Positions 1 through 30,370 of a stretch of DNA of 64,000 nucleotides are shown in pieces. How positions within the stretch are numbered: position 1 is the first letter of the stretch; every line of letters starts with the position of its first letter. The translations under genes were made by a program, and so were the position numbers. Below the pieces are notes generated by a model. The model was given only the letters and a program-made list of their open reading frames with translations, searched no databases and was not told the origin of the DNA. The stretch is from a phage, in the sequence record NC_094493.1; one strand, 5' to 3'.

Positions 1-1212
1 ATAAGCGATCTGCAGCAGAAGCGAATGCCTGACTGCAAGATACCTATGAAAATCAGCAATCAGGACGACATTAAGCGATACCTGATCAGTGCTGGTTGGC
101 TTCCGACAATGTGGAGAACTAAGGATGTAACTAAAGACAGCAAGAAGAAAGCTCTACCTGATGCAGATGTTGATGCACGAGTATATGCATACATGGACGA
201 GCTTTTAGAGTCAGAGTATTGTGACCTAATTATCAACTTCTGGAACAAAACTGATGCTAAGTTTCAGACAACAGTGCACAAGTTCCGAAGCTTTCCTAAC
301 TCCGAAAGGATTAAAAAGGAAGTATTCGGGAAAATACGTAGAAAAGCTAGGGCACTTATTACTTCTCCGCAACTGAAAGATACGTTTGGACACCTATGTC
401 CGAATCTTGAAAAATTGAACGGAGAGATGGCTAAGGATATCGTCTTGTGGTTATCCTTGCGAAACCGCAGATCGGTCCTTGATCCAATCAAGGAGGATAA
501 GGTTGATACTGGTCTTCTTAATCACCCACGCTTGAAGATTGACCATAAGCTTCCTGCTAAAAGCTCCGGATTAACAAACACTTCCAGACAGAAACACAGC
601 ATTTGTGCAAACATGCCTAAACCCTCTCCTAAAGTGGTTATGGGTAAGGAGATGCGTAGCTTGTGGGGTGTTCCTCCTGGATACTTTGAGATCGGTATTG
701 ACGGGTCCAACTTAGAGCAGCTTATCGGGGCTTGGGGTGCCTTTGAGTTCGACAACGGCTTGTATTATGATGTTGTAAGTAACGGGGACGCACACCAAAA
801 CAATGCTGAGGCATATACAAAAGTAGCAGGCAGAGAGGTGTCTCGTAACGACGGTAAACCTATCACGTATGGGGTTATGTACGGGGCACAAAAAGATAAA
901 GTTGCAGATATGCTGGACATCTCTCCAGAGTTGGGACAAAGGGTAATCGATGCACTCTGGGATGCCAACCCTGGTCTTAAGGGGCGCAAAGAGGATCTGG
1001 AGAAATTCTGGGAAGCAACAGGTAAGAAGTTTATCTACTCTTTTGATGGTCATGCTATCTGGACCCGATCTAAACACTCTTTACTTAATGCATACCAACA
1101 GAATGGTGGTGCATCGCTGTGTGACTTGGTTGGGATACTTATGCACCACCAAATGGTGAAGCGTGGGTGGTACGATGAAGGTGTTCGTCGTATTATTTAT
1201 TACCATAAATAA
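1..1212 (+). CDS. DNA polymerase, family A (Pol I/T7-like), C-terminal region; 5' end lies outside the window
   Basis: Frame is open from base 1. Motif A-like IDGSNLEQL and motif B-like RxxxxGKxITYGVMYG; segment after motif B aligns by eye with T7/Klenow up to just before motif C. No HDE motif before the stop. Confidence 0.65.
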   Translation: MSDLQQKRMPDCKIPMKISNQDDIKRYLISAGWLPTMWRTKDVTKDSKKKALPDADVDARVYAYMDELLESEYCDLIINFWNKTDAKFQTTVHKFRSFPNSERIKKEVFGKIRRKARALITSPQLKDTFGHLCPNLEKLNGEMAKDIVLWLSLRNRRSVLDPIKEDKVDTGLLNHPRLKIDHKLPAKSSGLTNTSRQKHSICANMPKPSPKVVMGKEMRSLWGVPPGYFEIGIDGSNLEQLIGAWGAFEFDNGLYYDVVSNGDAHQNNAEAYTKVAGREVSRNDGKPITYGVMYGAQKDKVADMLDISPELGQRVIDALWDANPGLKGRKEDLEKFWEATGKKFIYSFDGHAIWTRSKHSLLNAYQQNGGASLCDLVGILMHHQMVKRGWYDEGVRRIIYYHK

Positions 1213-1458
1213 CATTGTGGCTTCATAGAGTAATCTATGTCGAATAACCTCTTTAACTGCGGGAAGCCTAAACCTTATGGCAAGGTAATCCGCAACGAAG
1301 CGCTCAAAAGAGCGAACGCTCAGAGGCCATTCCGAAAGGAAGTAGACCAGCAAGTGCGGTCGAAATGGGAGGATTCCTGTGGTTGCTTATCATAGGAATA
1401 TGAGATGGTCCGATCCTACGTGAAAACGTATGGCTATGCACGTAATGGTGCGGGGTAG
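1213..1458 (+). other. Structured non-coding insert between the two polymerase ORFs; candidate group I intron
   Basis: In-frame stops separate two same-frame polymerase ORFs. Contains P-like TGCGGGAAG and Q-like AATCCGCAA elements in canonical order, plus several short hairpins with GAAA/GCAA loops. Confidence 0.3.
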
Positions 1459-27285: not shown

Positions 27286-27681
27286 TTACTGAAACAGTGC
27301 GGATAAATTACCTTCTGGTGGGAACTTATCTGCCAAAAACGGTGTTAGCACAGTAGCCTTCTGAAGATCTGGGGTCCACTCGTTGTTCAGAACATCCCAG
27401 TAGTACGCAATGTTGCTGTGTGGGTGCCGCATTACGAACTTTTTCCCTTCGTAGTCATCTGAAACCTCTACAGAAGAAATAACAACAGAATCTTCAAGGG
27501 TTTCTTCATAGAAAGATCCGCCTTCAAATTTCCAACGAGATGCAAGAGCCCCTGCCTTGAACGCTGCAGATAACGGACTGTCGGCAAGAACATACATTTC
27601 TTGCACTCTGCCGCTGCGATCTTTACTTCTTACGTTGTACACAGTATCTGAGCTATACTCAACACGGTATAGGCTTACCAT
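27286..27681 (-). CDS. hypothetical protein (paralogue of 29488-29886)
   Basis: Shares HPxSxxxxYWxxxxxxWTP motif with the 132 aa protein at 29488. Confidence 0.55.
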   Translation of the reverse strand: MVSLYRVEYSSDTVYNVRSKDRSGRVQEMYVLADSPLSAAFKAGALASRWKFEGGSFYEETLEDSVVISSVEVSDDYEGKKFVMRHPHSNIAYYWDVLNNEWTPDLQKATVLTPFLADKFPPEGNLSALFQ

Positions 27682-28013
27682 TACCGCACCTCCTCAATAA
27701 CTTCCACATCTGAACCTACCACAAATGCAAAAGGACAGGTTTCATGAAAGACATCCGGATCGCCGCCAAGCTTGCTAACAATTTCTCCACCACTAATAAA
27801 CACAAGCTCACCGATATTCATCAGATTGCTGAAATAGTATCCATAATGATTGAAGAATGCAGCAGGGTCAGGTAGACTAGTAGCCTCAAGTTCTACATCT
27901 GTTGAGATTACTTTCTTATCATAACCTCTCGCCTTCTGAGATGCAAGATCCGCAGAATCTTCAGGCGACCGGAGATGCACAGGAATTGTTTCACCAATAA
28001 AGCGTACTTTCAT
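27681..28013 (-). CDS. hypothetical protein
   Basis: ORF; start placed at ATG 28013 (MKVRFIG), immediately after the upstream stop. Confidence 0.45.
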   Translation of the reverse strand: MKVRFIGETIPVHLRSPEDSADLASQKARGYDKKVISTDVELEATSLPDPAAFFNHYGYYFSNLMNIGELVFISGGEIVSKLGGDPDVFHETCPFAFVVGSDVEVIEEVR

Positions 28014-28017
28014 ATTA

Positions 28018-28281
28018 TCACCCAACAACCATAGCTTCAAAAGGGGTCATGAACGAATAAACGGCATCATCATCTGCTTCAGGGAATGCTCCCAAAGACT
28101 TCATGTCTGAGCCCTTGACAAATACAAGGTTTTGATCAAAAGCTTCTTGGGGATCAATCCGATACATATTTCGTAGAATGTCGCTTACCTCCTCATCAAG
28201 AGGTGAGTATGCTGTGCACGTTTTTCCGATCAAGCTTTGAGAATCAGGGTATCCACCTGAAGTTTTAAAATAAACAATCAT
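28018..28281 (-). CDS. hypothetical protein
   Basis: ORF in coupled array. Confidence 0.5.
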   Translation of the reverse strand: MIVYFKTSGGYPDSQSLIGKTCTAYSPLDEEVSDILRNMYRIDPQEAFDQNLVFVKGSDMKSLGAFPEADDDAVYSFMTPFEAMVVG

Positions 28282-28372: not shown

Positions 28373-28642
28373 TTATTCCTCTACAATCTCATACACATCA
28401 GGAGTTACAATCAACTCTTCTCCGTTACCCGGTGCAACAAACACCACCAAACCTTCAGGTGTGTGCTTTTTAGCCATCTCGATAACATCTTCGCGCAGAG
28501 CTGGCTCCATCAGATCAAAACCTTCACCCAGGGCATCACTAACCACCTTCATATAGTCCACTGGTTGTGCTTCAACAATCATGCCTTCAACCAGTCCACA
28601 GTTTTTGTCTGCCAGCTCAGTTTTGAATAATTTAATTTTCAT
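28373..28642 (-). CDS. small acidic protein (paralogue family)
   Basis: MKIKLFKTEL... ending ...TPDVYEIVEE. Confidence 0.55.
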   Translation of the reverse strand: MKIKLFKTELADKNCGLVEGMIVEAQPVDYMKVVSDALGEGFDLMEPALREDVIEMAKKHTPEGLVVFVAPGNGEELIVTPDVYEIVEE

Positions 28643-28779
28643 TTAGAGGTCTCCTCAATTATTTGATATTAATAGCCGTAACCTAACACATTAACTACAA
28701 TTGCGATTGCAAACATAATTTCAAAGCATGCAATCTCTACATTTGGGACTAATTTCTTAATCACACCCATTGTAGCACC

Positions 28780-29097
28780 TCATTCTCCAAAGTCAATCTT
28801 TACTTTGCCTTTCCCCTTACCTTTCTTTCCACCACATTTAGCCAGCTGACGTGCTGCAACATCTACCATACGGTCAGTTGCCTCGTAAGCATCACTGCCT
28901 TTAGCTTTGGCAATAACTTCTTTTCCAGAATTGTCAAAAATGAACGCCATAACTTCCTGGTGATCATTTTCAACTTTTACACTCACACGTGCATAGTTGG
29001 CAGAGGGGTGCAAACGCTCCAGCTTAGACATTTTGTGGGAAATGAAAGACACCATACCTTCAGTGATTTCTACGTTGCCAGTGATTTCAATTTGCAT
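28780..29097 (-). CDS. hpf: Ribosome hibernation promoting factor / ribosome-associated inhibitor (HPF/RaiA, YfiA family) homologue
   Basis: MQIEITGNVEITEGM...KLE...VSVKVEN...AKGSDAYEATDRMVDVAARQL aligns by eye with E. coli HPF (MQLNITGNNVEITEAL...KLE...VLKVEK...AEGQDMYAAIDGLIDKLARQL); extra Lys/Gly-rich C-terminal tail. Confidence 0.7.
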   Translation of the reverse strand: MQIEITGNVEITEGMVSFISHKMSKLERLHPSANYARVSVKVENDHQEVMAFIFDNSGKEVIAKAKGSDAYEATDRMVDVAARQLAKCGGKKGKGKGKVKIDFGE

Positions 29098-29179
29098 AAC
29101 GTGTTCCTTTTAAAGAAGAGGGAACCAAACCCTCTTTGAAAACAATGATACTAAATCTGAAGCGTTGTGTCAACAGTTT

Positions 29180-29487: not shown

Positions 29488-29886
29488 TCAGTTTAGCTTT
29501 TCTTCAACAACCCCATAGCTTGGGACAGAATCAAGAGCTTTCTGGTTTAAAAGTGGTGTAGCAGAATCTGCAAACGGTGTCCAAGTTTTTGTTCTGGAAT
29601 TCCAGTAATGCTTCACTCTGGAATCTGGATGCACTATAACAAAAACTTTTTCACTTGTCAACACATTAATTTCTTCTACACCCTTGCTGATAATTTCTCC
29701 GTCATAGCCCCCAGTCTGGTATCCTTCGTACCAGGTTCTTGCATAGGCATAGCCAGCCTGCCAGCATGCAGCCTCCTCCGAGGTGGAGACTACGTAGAAG
29801 TCCTTCTCAAATTCCGGAATACGCCCTTGCTTTACGCTCCAAGCTCCGCGAATTTTCATTGTAACTTTGAACAGTTTATTTTTCAC
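29488..29886 (-). CDS. hypothetical protein (paralogue of 27286-27681)
   Basis: Shared HP..S...YW......WTP motif. Confidence 0.55.
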   Translation of the reverse strand: MKNKLFKVTMKIRGAWSVKQGRIPEFEKDFYVVSTSEEAACWQAGYAYARTWYEGYQTGGYDGEIISKGVEEINVLTSEKVFVIVHPDSRVKHYWNSRTKTWTPFADSATPLLNQKALDSVPSYGVVEEKLN

Positions 29887-29898
29887 AACGGTTACCCA

Positions 29899-30153
29899 TC
29901 ACAGCTCTACAATATCTGCATCTGACCCTACCCCAAAGGCATAATAGGACTCTTCCCCGAAATAATATTCAGGTGCACCAGCGGTGATCAGGTCTGATCC
30001 TAAGATAAACACCACGTTGTGGCCTACATAACTGTGATGTTGCCGCACAGGATCATCCCACGGCAACCCTTCAAAGTATACCGCAGGGACGACCTTTCCT
30101 TTCAGGAAGGATTGCCCCAAGTAGACGTTAGAATCAAGAATTTTAACCTTCAT
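29899..30153 (-). CDS. small acidic protein (MKVK-LD paralogue)
   Basis: MKVKILDSNVYLGQ...DLITAGA...; closely related to 30143 and 33798. Confidence 0.55.
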   Translation of the reverse strand: MKVKILDSNVYLGQSFLKGKVVPAVYFEGLPWDDPVRQHHSYVGHNVVFILGSDLITAGAPEYYFGEESYYAFGVGSDADIVEL

Positions 30154-30370
30154 GATCGTCCTCCACTATCTCTACATCCTCACCTAGGGCAAAGTTGTAG
30201 GTCCACTGACTGTCAAAGCATTCCTGAGATGCACCAGCGGCAATAAGATCTGCCCCTTTTATTTTTAAAAGGTCAGGGTAATCTTCGTTAGGGACAGCAG
30301 TAAACACTTTCCCCACTAAAGGCTCCTGACCAATATAGAATCTTGAATCTAAAACTTTAACTTTCATCAA
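30143..30370 (-). CDS. small acidic protein (MKVK-LD paralogue)
   Basis: MMKVKVLDSRFYIGQ...DLIAAGA...; tandem with 29899. Confidence 0.55.
   Translation of the reverse strand: MMKVKVLDSRFYIGQEPLVGKVFTAVPNEDYPDLLKIKGADLIAAGASQECFDSQWTYNFALGEDVEIVEDDHEG

What the first reader, a model, noticed from the sequence alone, without database searches (positions are those of the whole stretch)
28780..29097. Phage-encoded ribosome hibernation factor (HPF/RaiA) homologue
The 105 aa protein aligns by eye along its whole length with E. coli HPF (MQ-I/L-x-ITGNxVEITE, KLE, VxVKVE, AxGxDxYxAxDxxxDxxARQL) and adds a Lys/Gly-rich tail. It sits among small acidic early proteins. A phage copy of a ribosome-silencing factor suggests the phage alters host translation, for example by hibernating host ribosomes or reshaping the translating pool.
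Basis: partly seen in the sequence, partly recalled or inferred. Interest (0 to 1): 0.75.

Follow-up and report, generated by a model that had tools for sequence, protein, structure and literature searches.

The report
Known phage rV5 ribosome-hibernation-factor homologue
The gene is a genuine but strongly diverged phage copy of the bacterial ribosome-silencing protein HPF; it was annotated in phage rV5 years ago and tested in a 2019 paper, so the finding is correct but not new, and its role in infection is still unknown.

Summary
The ORF at 28780-29097 (- strand, 105 aa) is real. It belongs to the HPF/YfiA family: Pfam PF02482 at 48.3 bits against a cut-off of 23.7, and E. coli HPF in the PDB at E 5e-12, colinear over residues 1-89. 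[quoted passage not shown]

The window is an rV5-like coliphage (genus Vequintavirus). The protein is 100% identical to rV5 ORF144, deposited as 'sigma 54 modulation factor'. Mizuno et al. 2019 listed it as a phage HPF and expressed it in E. coli. They did not find it in 70S or 100S ribosomes after a 500 mM NH4Cl wash, and 100S levels did not change. The finding is therefore already known.

What I add:
- It is only about 40% identical to any bacterial HPF, so it is not a recent capture.
- It is under strong purifying selection (pN/pS 0.067) and occurs in about 117 cultured genomes and a 64%-identical sister lineage.
- It keeps 24 of 32 family-conserved positions but loses the E. coli HPF contacts to E-site tRNA and h23 (R33, K93, H95).
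- It carries a conserved Lys-rich tail ending K-[I/W]-D-[F/Y].
- A conserved sigma-70 promoter lies directly upstream.

The most likely function is binding the 30S decoding channel, with a RaiA-like tail effect. This is inferred, not shown.

The parts
28780..29097 (-). Complete CDS of the phage HPF/YfiA-family protein (105 aa plus stop). It is 100% identical to rV5 ORF144 / ABI79209.
   Evidence: ORF list and sequence; PF02482 at 48.3 bits; tblastn 100% identity to DQ832317; rV5 annotation
28837..29097 (-). [quoted passage not shown]
   Evidence: AlphaFold2 pLDDT mostly 85-97 in the core with two different alignments. Foldseek: the top 35 PDB hits are all HPF/YfiA/pY, with rmsd 1.1-1.2 A to V. 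cholerae and E. coli HPF. 24 of 32 family-conserved columns are retained.
28783..28836 (-). C-terminal tail, residues 88-105 (CGGKKGKGKGKVKIDFGE). It is Lys/Gly-rich, predicted disordered and 10 residues longer than the E. coli HPF tail.
   Evidence: pLDDT below 50 for residues 90-105; net charge about +3.8. The basic tract plus K-I-D-F is kept across rV5-like phages, and the sister lineage has K-W-D-Y. Phage Murica has a truncated tail.
29105..29109 (-). Shine-Dalgarno-like AAGGA, 7 nt upstream of the ATG.
   Evidence: Read from the sequence; AAAAGGA is nearly invariant in 9 rV5-like phages
29116..29136 (-). 7-bp hairpin (AAGAGGG / CCCUCUU) between the predicted promoter and the SD. It could be a 5'-end stem-loop of the mRNA or the upstream gene's terminator remnant. 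The evidence is weak.
   Evidence: MFE -9.9 kcal/mol, but z-score only -0.34 against shuffles; present in rV5-like phages
29145..29173 (-). Sigma-70-type promoter TTGACA-17-TATCAT (11 of 12 consensus positions), equivalent to promoter P144 annotated in rV5.
   Evidence: Promoter scan; rV5 record annotation. The -35 block AAACTGTTGACACA is invariant in 10 phages, including the 64%-identity sister lineage.

Best explanation
The gene encodes a phage-adapted descendant of a gammaproteobacterial short HPF (PF02482 family). Host RNA polymerase probably transcribes it from a consensus-like sigma-70 promoter within the non-structural gene block, rV5 transcription unit 82-163. Like HPF and RaiA/YfiA, the folded core probably sits in the 30S channel between h30 and h44 of vacant host ribosomes, covering the A- and P-site tRNA and mRNA positions. 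The lengthened Lys-rich tail probably runs along the mRNA path towards the E site and anti-SD region, where RMF binds. The expected outcome is RaiA-like: protected, translationally idle 70S particles rather than RMF/HPF-type 100S dimers. This would give the phage control over how many host ribosomes are parked and shielded from RNases during infection. Shown here: family membership, fold, purifying selection, conservation across the genus, and the promoter motif. Inferred only: ribosome binding, the path of the tail, expression timing and the benefit to the phage.
For: - Family and fold: PF02482 at 48.3 bits (cut-off 23.7) and TIGR00741 at 45.9 bits (cut-off 40.9). E. coli HPF structures match at E about 5e-12, colinear over residues 1-89. 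[quoted passage not shown] All 35 best PDB matches are HPF/YfiA/pY.
- Conserved positions: the phage keeps 24 of 32 columns that are at least 70% conserved in 28 diverse bacterial homologues, against about 40% overall identity. These include K22, K25, E43, D69, Y71, D75, D79, R83, Q84, L85 and K87. Several are ribosome contacts in cryo-EM structures.
- Selection and distribution: pooled pN/pS is 0.067 among 12 rV5-like genes. The gene is in 117 cultured Vequintavirus-type records and sits syntenically in an uncultured sister lineage at 64% identity.
- Tail: it is 10 residues longer than the HPF tail. RaiA's 18-residue extension is thought to reach the RMF site and block 100S formation (PMC7913689; bioRxiv 10.1101/2025.10.07.680626). 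The basic tract and the terminal K[IW]D[FY] are conserved between the two phage lineages.
- Promoter.
- Published data: no change in 100S when the protein was expressed, which fits a factor that does not promote 100S.
Against: - The identical protein was not detected by mass spectrometry in 70S or 100S fractions of E. coli, although it was present in the crude extract (PMC6375957). The ribosomes had been pelleted for 20 h through 500 mM NH4Cl from late-exponential cells. From my own knowledge, such washes strip loosely bound factors.
- Several basic contact residues of enterobacterial HPF are lost: R33 to S, K80 to V, K89 to G, Y30 to L, T53 to F and the C-terminal H95.
- The score is far below the NCBIfam equivalog cut-offs for HPF (55.8 against 125) and RaiA (17.6 against 158).
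- There are no expression-timing data. No phage knock-out or ribosome-binding study turned up in the paper searches.
- It is unclear why a lytic phage would idle ribosomes.
Confidence: 0.45

Rival explanations
1. Anti-hibernation competitor. The phage protein binds weakly or transiently at the HPF/RaiA site, or blocks RMF with its tail. This stops the starving or alarmed host from locking ribosomes into 100S dimers, or helps release them, so ribosomes stay available for phage mRNAs. The authors of the 2019 paper proposed this idea.
For: Mizuno et al. suggested that viral HPF might compete with the cellular homologue and prevent dimer formation. The phage protein lacks the HPF residues that hold E-site tRNA and stack on G693 (R33, K93, H95), which could make binding weaker and more reversible. 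The tail is longer than that of HPF, as in the 100S antagonist RaiA. Failure to survive a high-salt wash fits low-affinity binding. rmf, hpf and raiA are induced by (p)ppGpp under stress.
Against: Any occupant of the A/P-site channel is itself an inhibitor of translation, so competition alone does not free ribosomes. Expression did not visibly lower the small 100S peak, though cells were harvested when little 100S exists. There is no evidence that rV5 infection induces hibernation.
Confidence: 0.25
2. Repurposed fold. The protein keeps the HPF fold but no longer binds the ribosomal decoding channel. It acts instead as a small basic RNA- or protein-binding factor with a phage-specific target such as a phage mRNA, a tRNA or a host protein.
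For: It was absent from purified ribosomes while present in the extract. It is highly diverged: at most 45% identity to any bacterial homologue among 1.84 billion cluster representatives, and a long branch in the tree. It falls below both equivalog cut-offs. Four conserved basic contacts are lost. The fold also gives weak matches to dsRNA-binding domains (Staufen, DCL4, PKR; E 1e-3 to 3e-2). Its PHROG family 12469 is labelled 'unknown function', separate from the phage S30AE family phrog_8990.
Against: The retained positions are those most conserved family-wide, and they include ribosome-contact residues K25, E43, D75, R83 and K87 (75% retained against about 40% overall). This pattern would not be expected if the ribosome-binding surface were released from constraint. 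The negative experiment used a stripping salt wash.
Confidence: 0.2
3. Classical host shut-off by 100S promotion. The protein acts like E. coli HPF and, together with host RMF, drives ribosomes into 100S dimers.
For: Enterobacterial short HPFs are the closest bacterial relatives (40-43% identity against 24% to YfiA), and the HPF equivalog model scores higher than the RaiA model (55.8 against 17.6 bits).
Against: Expression had no discernible effect on 100S particles. The HPF-specific contacts to E-site tRNA and h23 are lost. The tail is lengthened towards the RMF site, and in RaiA such an extension is considered incompatible with RMF. 100S formation needs RMF, which is a stationary-phase protein.
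Confidence: 0.07
4. Non-functional passenger gene or annotation artefact. This includes the historic label 'sigma-54 modulation protein' taken literally.
For: None beyond the absence of a demonstrated function. The sigma-54 label is inherited from the Klebsiella homologue named in the rV5 record.
Against: pN/pS is 0.067. An intact ORF is present in about 117 genomes and in a sister lineage at 64% identity in the same position. It has its own conserved promoter and SD. Peptides were detected when it was expressed.
Confidence: 0.03

Closest known systems
rV5 ORF144 / gp (ABI79209), the 'phage HPF' of Mizuno et al. 2019 (Nat Commun 10:752, PMC6375957)
   Same: The protein sequence is identical (100% over 105 aa). 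The mass-spectrometry peptides reported in that paper (GSDAYEATDR, VENDHQEVMAFIFDNSGK, VKIDFGE) all occur in the window protein. The genomic position and upstream promoter P144 are the same.
   Different: Nothing in the protein differs. The window comes from a closely related isolate, about 99% identical to Escherichia phage I29 and about 98% to rV5 at the DNA level.
E. coli short HPF (YhbH; PDB 2RQL, 4V8H, 6H4N)
   Same: Same fold (rmsd 1.2 A to 6h4n_x) and colinear over residues 1-89. The N-terminal strand MQ[IL]xITGN(N)VEITE is almost identical. It shares K22/K25, E43, D69-x-Y71, D75, D79, R83-Q84-L85 and K87. It is closer to HPF than to RaiA.
   Different: Only 39-42% identical, and below the HPF equivalog cut-off (55.8 against 125 bits). 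R33, K80, K89, K93 and H95 are replaced, and the first, fourth and fifth of these contact E-site tRNA or G693 in the 100S structure. The tail KHKDKLKQH is replaced by an 18-residue Lys/Gly-rich tail. It has extra lysines on beta4 (K64, K66). It is phage-encoded with a sigma-70 promoter rather than lying in the rpoN operon.
E. coli RaiA / YfiA (protein Y)
   Same: Same fold and presumably the same binding site. Like RaiA, it has a C-terminal extension beyond the end of HPF. In RaiA that extension heads towards the RMF site and is thought to prevent 100S formation.
   Different: It scores 17.6 bits against a 158-bit cut-off on the RaiA equivalog model. The extension is 10 residues rather than 18, and it is basic (+4) where the RaiA tail is acidic.
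Other phage S30AE/HPF-like proteins (phrog_8990; Cronobacter phage GAP32 AFC21633)
   Same: They are phage-encoded members of PF02482.
   Different: They form a separate lineage. The window protein hits phrog_8990 only weakly (E 1.5e-6) and belongs to its own PHROG 12469 (E 7.5e-71). tblastn at E<=1 finds no GAP32-type hit.

Membership tests
HPF/YfiA/RaiA superfamily (Pfam PF02482 Ribosomal_S30AE; TIGR00741) | Profile match above the curated cut-off | tested here: met
   PF02482 at 48.3 bits against 23.7, E 1.8e-12, covering profile positions 1-83 of 88. TIGR00741 at 45.9 bits against 40.9.
HPF/YfiA/RaiA superfamily (Pfam PF02482 Ribosomal_S30AE; TIGR00741) | [quoted passage not shown] | tested here: met
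   Two AF2 models (pLDDT 84.7 and 83.4) have elements E-H-E-E-E-H. Foldseek top 35 hits are all family members, with TM 0.8-0.9.
HPF/YfiA/RaiA superfamily (Pfam PF02482 Ribosomal_S30AE; TIGR00741) | Retention of family-wide conserved residues (helix-1 Lys pair, D-x-Y, D75, R-Q-L, K87) | tested here: met
   24 of 32 columns conserved at 70% or more are retained; K80 and K89 are lost.
HPF/YfiA/RaiA superfamily (Pfam PF02482 Ribosomal_S30AE; TIGR00741) | Binds the 30S subunit at the A/P-site channel of vacant ribosomes | not testable with these tools
   The published test with the identical protein was negative after a 500 mM NH4Cl wash. That is not decisive.
Short HPF, 100S-promoting type (NCBIfam NF007780 equivalog) | Equivalog-level profile score | tested here: not met
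   55.8 bits against a cut-off of 125.
Short HPF, 100S-promoting type (NCBIfam NF007780 equivalog) | Residues contacting E-site tRNA (R33, K93) and the C-terminal His stacking on G693 of h23 | tested here: not met
   The aligned residues are S32, G93 and G95, and the tail is replaced.
Short HPF, 100S-promoting type (NCBIfam NF007780 equivalog) | Promotes 100S formation together with RMF | not testable with these tools
   Published: no discernible effect on 100S in late-exponential cells.
RaiA / YfiA (NCBIfam NF007654 equivalog) | Equivalog-level profile score | tested here: not met
   17.6 bits against a cut-off of 158.
RaiA / YfiA (NCBIfam NF007654 equivalog) | C-terminal extension beyond the end of HPF that reaches the RMF site | tested here: inconclusive
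   An extension exists (10 residues beyond HPF, against 18 in RaiA). It has no sequence similarity to RaiA's and opposite charge. Its path on the ribosome cannot be tested here.
Long HPF (Gram-positive type with C-terminal dimerisation domain) | Second, C-terminal dimerisation domain (protein about 180-190 aa) | tested here: not met
   The protein is 105 aa with a single Pfam domain, and residues 90-105 are predicted disordered.

The most novel reading that the evidence does not exclude
The rV5-type protein is not a hibernation promoter. It is a phage-evolved variant whose conserved Lys-rich tail with the K-[I/W]-D-[F/Y] end excludes RMF. It either shields vacant host ribosomes from RNases such as YbeY and RNase R, or counters dormancy-type host responses. 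That would make it a viral manipulator of the ribosome hibernation pathway with a mode distinct from both HPF and RaiA.
Probability: 0.25. Interest if true: 0.6.

Novelty: already known. Interest (0 to 1): 0.25.

Why it matters
The existence of the gene is known, so little rests on it. The open question is its function. It is a strongly conserved, purifying-selected HPF derivative in a widespread group of therapeutic-candidate coliphages (rV5-like, including several BASEL-collection phages). It would be a clean system for asking whether lytic phages manipulate ribosome hibernation. The only experiment so far was negative, under conditions that may have stripped the protein from ribosomes. The observations added here are deep divergence from host HPF, loss of the E-tRNA/h23 contacts, a conserved basic tail motif and a dedicated sigma-70 promoter. 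They turn a vague 'auxiliary gene' label into specific hypotheses testable by mutagenesis.

Tried and rejected
- The word-indexed protein search with the phage protein returned only near-identical sequences plus P0004.
- The exhaustive representative search gave 22 hits. The second best, P0126 (1160 aa, 8 stretches), is an unrelated repeat protein and was rejected as spurious.
- The IMG/VR scan gave only two loci, so I fetched orthologues one at a time from GenBank phage records for dN/dS.
- dS between the two phage lineages is saturated, so no dN/dS could be calculated for that pair.
- Polikanov et al. 2012 could not be retrieved under the PMC id I recalled for it (PMC3377384). I took contact residues from Beckert et al. 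2018 (bioRxiv) and a 2025 preprint instead.
- Literature searches found no functional follow-up, no phage knock-out and no Vequintavirus transcriptome.
- The 5'-UTR hairpin is no more stable than shuffled sequence (z -0.34), so I do not claim it as a regulatory element.
- Rfam found nothing near the gene.
- Nine neighbouring ORFs have no Pfam match. The label 'sigma 54 modulation factor' on the downstream 89-aa ORF in some records was rejected as an annotation error.
- 'Recent transfer from the host' (stated in the 2019 paper) is not supported. The best bacterial identity is 40-45%, lower than between HPFs of different gammaproteobacterial orders.

Full report
**1.

An ATG-initiated ORF of 105 codons occupies exactly 28780..29097 on the minus strand. 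Its product matches Pfam PF02482 (Ribosomal_S30AE, the HPF/YfiA family) at E 1.8e-12 and 48.3 bits, against a gathering cut-off of 23.7. It also passes the general NCBIfam model TIGR00741, with 45.9 bits against 40.9. Against the PDB, the best matches are E. coli HPF chains (2rql, 4v8h, 6h4n) at E 5e-12 to 2.5e-11. The Lys/Gly-rich tail and the acidic neighbours are also real. The protein has pI 8.7 and its tail carries about +4 charge. Most flanking ORFs have pI 4.0-4.9.

**2. Fold**

AlphaFold2 with an alignment that included bacterial HPFs gave pLDDT 84.7. The element order was E2-7, H13-29, E33-42, E47-55, E60-67, H70-89, with residues 90-105 disordered. That alignment could bias the result, so I repeated the prediction with four phage sequences only. 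The topology was the same, at pLDDT 83.4. Foldseek against the PDB returned HPF, YfiA, protein Y or plastid pY for all 35 significant hits. The rmsd was 1.1 A to V. cholerae HPF and 1.2 A to E. coli HPF inside the 100S ribosome.

**3. Where the window comes from, and what is already known**

The surrounding 4 kb is 97-99% identical to about 115 rV5-like coliphages of genus Vequintavirus. The best match is Escherichia phage I29 at 99%. The protein is 100% identical to rV5 ORF144 (ABI79209). That entry is deposited as 'sigma 54 modulation factor', and RefSeq renames it 'ribosome-associated translation inhibitor RaiA'. Many other records call it 'ribosome hibernation (promoting) factor'.

- Mizuno et al. 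2019 (Nat Commun 10:752, PMC6375957) list this exact protein as one of seven phage HPFs. They synthesised the gene and expressed it from pBAD24 in E. coli NM522. [quoted passage not shown]
- Their ribosomes came from cells at OD600 about 1. They had been pelleted for 20 h through 500 mM NH4Cl. The authors themselves name the salt wash and the growth phase as possible reasons for the negative result.
- Mathieu et al. 2020 (PMC6969025) again note hpf in five rV5-type gut phages.
- I found no later functional, structural or genetic study in the searchable library.

The finding is therefore correct but already known.

**4. What the analysis adds**

(a) Divergence.
- An exhaustive HMMER scan of 1.84 billion cluster representatives finds only one relative above 50% identity. 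This is P0004, at 64-65% identity and 103 aa.
- Every bacterial homologue is at or below 45%.
- Identity to enterobacterial HPFs is 37-43%, and to E. coli YfiA about 24%.
- HPFs within Enterobacterales are 77-100% identical to E. coli HPF. More distant bacterial representatives retrieved still share 53-65% with it.
- In a neighbour-joining tree the two phage proteins form one long branch.
- The 2019 statement that the transfer was 'relatively recent' is not supported by these numbers. The gene was either acquired long ago or has evolved fast.

(b) Orthology in a sister lineage. P0004 sits in the same position, in the same order of small genes, on uncultured contigs of about 126-137 kb. These contigs have no close match among cultured phages. 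The gene therefore predates the split of the two lineages.

(c) Selection. Twelve rV5-like genes give a pooled pN/pS of 0.067. Pairwise dN/dS values against the window are 0.02-0.18.

(d) Distribution. tblastn finds the protein in 117 cultured rV5-type records. Nothing convincing appears outside them, only four hits below 60% identity.

(e) Residue pattern.
- Of 32 alignment columns at least 70% conserved in 28 diverse bacterial homologues, the phage retains 24. This is about twice its overall identity.
- The retained positions include K22, K25, E43, D69, Y71, D75, D79, R83, Q84, L85 and K87.
- Several of these are ribosome contacts in recent cryo-EM structures (bioRxiv 10.1101/2025.10.07.680626).
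- Residues specific to the enterobacterial HPF mode are replaced. R33 and K93 contact the E-site tRNA, and H95 stacks on G693 of h23 (Beckert et al., bioRxiv 10.1101/382572). In the phage these align with S32, G93 and G95.
- Y30, T53, K80 and K89 are also changed.

(f) Tail.
- After K87 the phage has 18 residues, CGGKKGKGKGKVKIDFGE, against 8 in HPF.
- Variants within the clade end KIDFGE, KIDFWD, KIDF or GKIDFE.
- The sister lineage has YSKSKGIDKRTAKWDY.
- A basic tract followed by K-[I/W]-D-[F/Y] is therefore the conserved feature.
- Phage Murica carries a truncated tail.

(g) Expression signals.
- A TTGACA-17-TATCAT promoter (11 of 12 consensus positions) lies at 29173..29145. It corresponds to promoter P144 in the rV5 record.
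- Its -35 block is invariant in ten phages, including the sister lineage.
- An AAGGA Shine-Dalgarno sequence lies 7 nt before the ATG.
- A 7-bp hairpin lies between promoter and SD, but it is no more stable than shuffled sequence.
- The rV5 genome paper places ORF144 in transcription unit 82-163, which also holds the nucleotide-metabolism genes (PMC3606486).

**5. Most likely mechanism**

- Shown: the protein is a constrained, expressed member of the HPF/YfiA family with an intact fold and the family's most conserved surface residues.
- Inferred: it binds where all characterised members bind, the channel between the 30S head and body over the A and P sites of vacant ribosomes.
- Further inferred: the tail matters. 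RaiA differs from HPF mainly by a C-terminal extension. That extension points towards the RMF pocket and is thought to block RMF binding and 100S formation (PMC7913689).
- The phage tail is 10 residues longer than the HPF tail and strongly basic. The phage protein has also lost the HPF residues that hold E-site tRNA.
- I therefore favour a RaiA-like outcome of idle, protected 70S particles over HPF-like 100S promotion. Confidence for the whole chain is about 0.45.
- Hibernation factors shield 16S rRNA from YbeY and RNase R. This offers one rationale for a phage: preserving ribosomes that become vacant when host mRNA disappears.
- The main rivals are an anti-hibernation competitor (about 0.25), a repurposed fold that no longer binds ribosomes (about 0.2) and classical 100S promotion (about 0.07). 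A non-functional relic is effectively excluded by the selection data.

**6. Membership**

The protein is a member of the PF02482/TIGR00741 superfamily: profile, fold and conserved residues were all tested and met. It is not an equivalog of HPF (55.8 bits against a cut-off of 125) or of RaiA (17.6 against 158). It lacks the C-terminal domain of long HPFs. Records that call it 'RaiA' or 'HPF' name it more precisely than the evidence allows. 'HPF/YfiA-family protein' is the accurate name.

**7. Verdict**

Novelty is 'already known'. Interest is low (0.25). The residual interest lies in the unresolved function and the testable tail hypothesis.

**Side observations**

- Rfam finds a group I intron at window 1197..1432 (64.7 bits against a gathering score of 50). 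It lies exactly at the annotated end of the family-A DNA polymerase CDS (window 25..1212 = rV5 ORF228).
- A downstream ORF ends in GSNWGDCH. From my own knowledge, this resembles the C-terminus of family-A DNA polymerases. RefSeq labels that ORF separately as 'DNA polymerase'.
- The rV5 paper reports introns only in the terminase gene. I did not resolve the splice junctions.
- Paralogous small acidic genes flank hpf.
- Several GenBank records mislabel hpf as 'ATP-dependent protease La'.

Noticed in passing
window 1197-1432 (+), with flanking ORFs 25-1212 and 1480-1836: Rfam group I intron (RF00028, 64.7 bits against a gathering score of 50, E 4e-14). It begins at the annotated 3' end of the family-A DNA polymerase CDS, rV5 ORF228. 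A downstream ORF ends ...GSNWGDCH*, which resembles a PolA C-terminus from my own knowledge, and RefSeq separately labels it 'DNA polymerase'. The polymerase gene therefore looks intron-split, but the records annotate no intron. The rV5 paper mentions introns only in the terminase gene. Splice junctions are unresolved: a stop at 1456-1458 lies in the exon-2 frame just after the Rfam match.
   Followed up: partly
window 27286-27681 / 29488-29886; 29899-30153 / 30143-30370; 27681-28040: The hpf gene is embedded among paralogous small acidic protein genes. Pairs share 31% identity (E 6e-10) and 41% identity (E 4e-15), with weaker links to 27681-28040 through a shared C-terminal ...D-V/I-E-I/V-V/I-E-E-like end. 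None has a Pfam match.
   Followed up: partly
window 28780-29097 and 28373-28642, as annotated in related GenBank records: Annotation errors are propagating in public records. Several O177 and bovine phage genomes label the hpf gene 'ATP-dependent protease La type I'. Phages nimi, pangalan, nomo, isim and APECc02 label the downstream 89-aa acidic ORF 'sigma 54 modulation factor', although it has no PF02482 match.
   Followed up: yes
related records MG0656xx (e.g. L010, Campylobacter phage A135): Eighteen records named 'Campylobacter phage' are 97-98% identical to rV5-like coliphages across this region; the one record opened (A135, MG065690) is marked UNVERIFIED. The host label is doubtful.
   Followed up: no
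window 28769-28796 (-) and ORF 28669-28770 (-): A second sigma-70-like motif (TTGACT-16-TACAAT with an extended -10 TG, 10 of 12 positions) lies inside the last codons of hpf. It sits just upstream of a 33-aa hydrophobic ORF, rV5 ORF145, which starts 9 nt after the hpf stop.
   Followed up: no
L008 (phage nomo) and L009 (phage Murica), hpf orthologues: The Murica-species phages carry an extra Asn (ITGNNVEIT), which restores the spacing seen in bacterial HPF. Murica itself has a tail truncated to ...GKGKAK*, so the K-I-D-F end is dispensable, or mis-sequenced, in at least one isolate.
   Followed up: no
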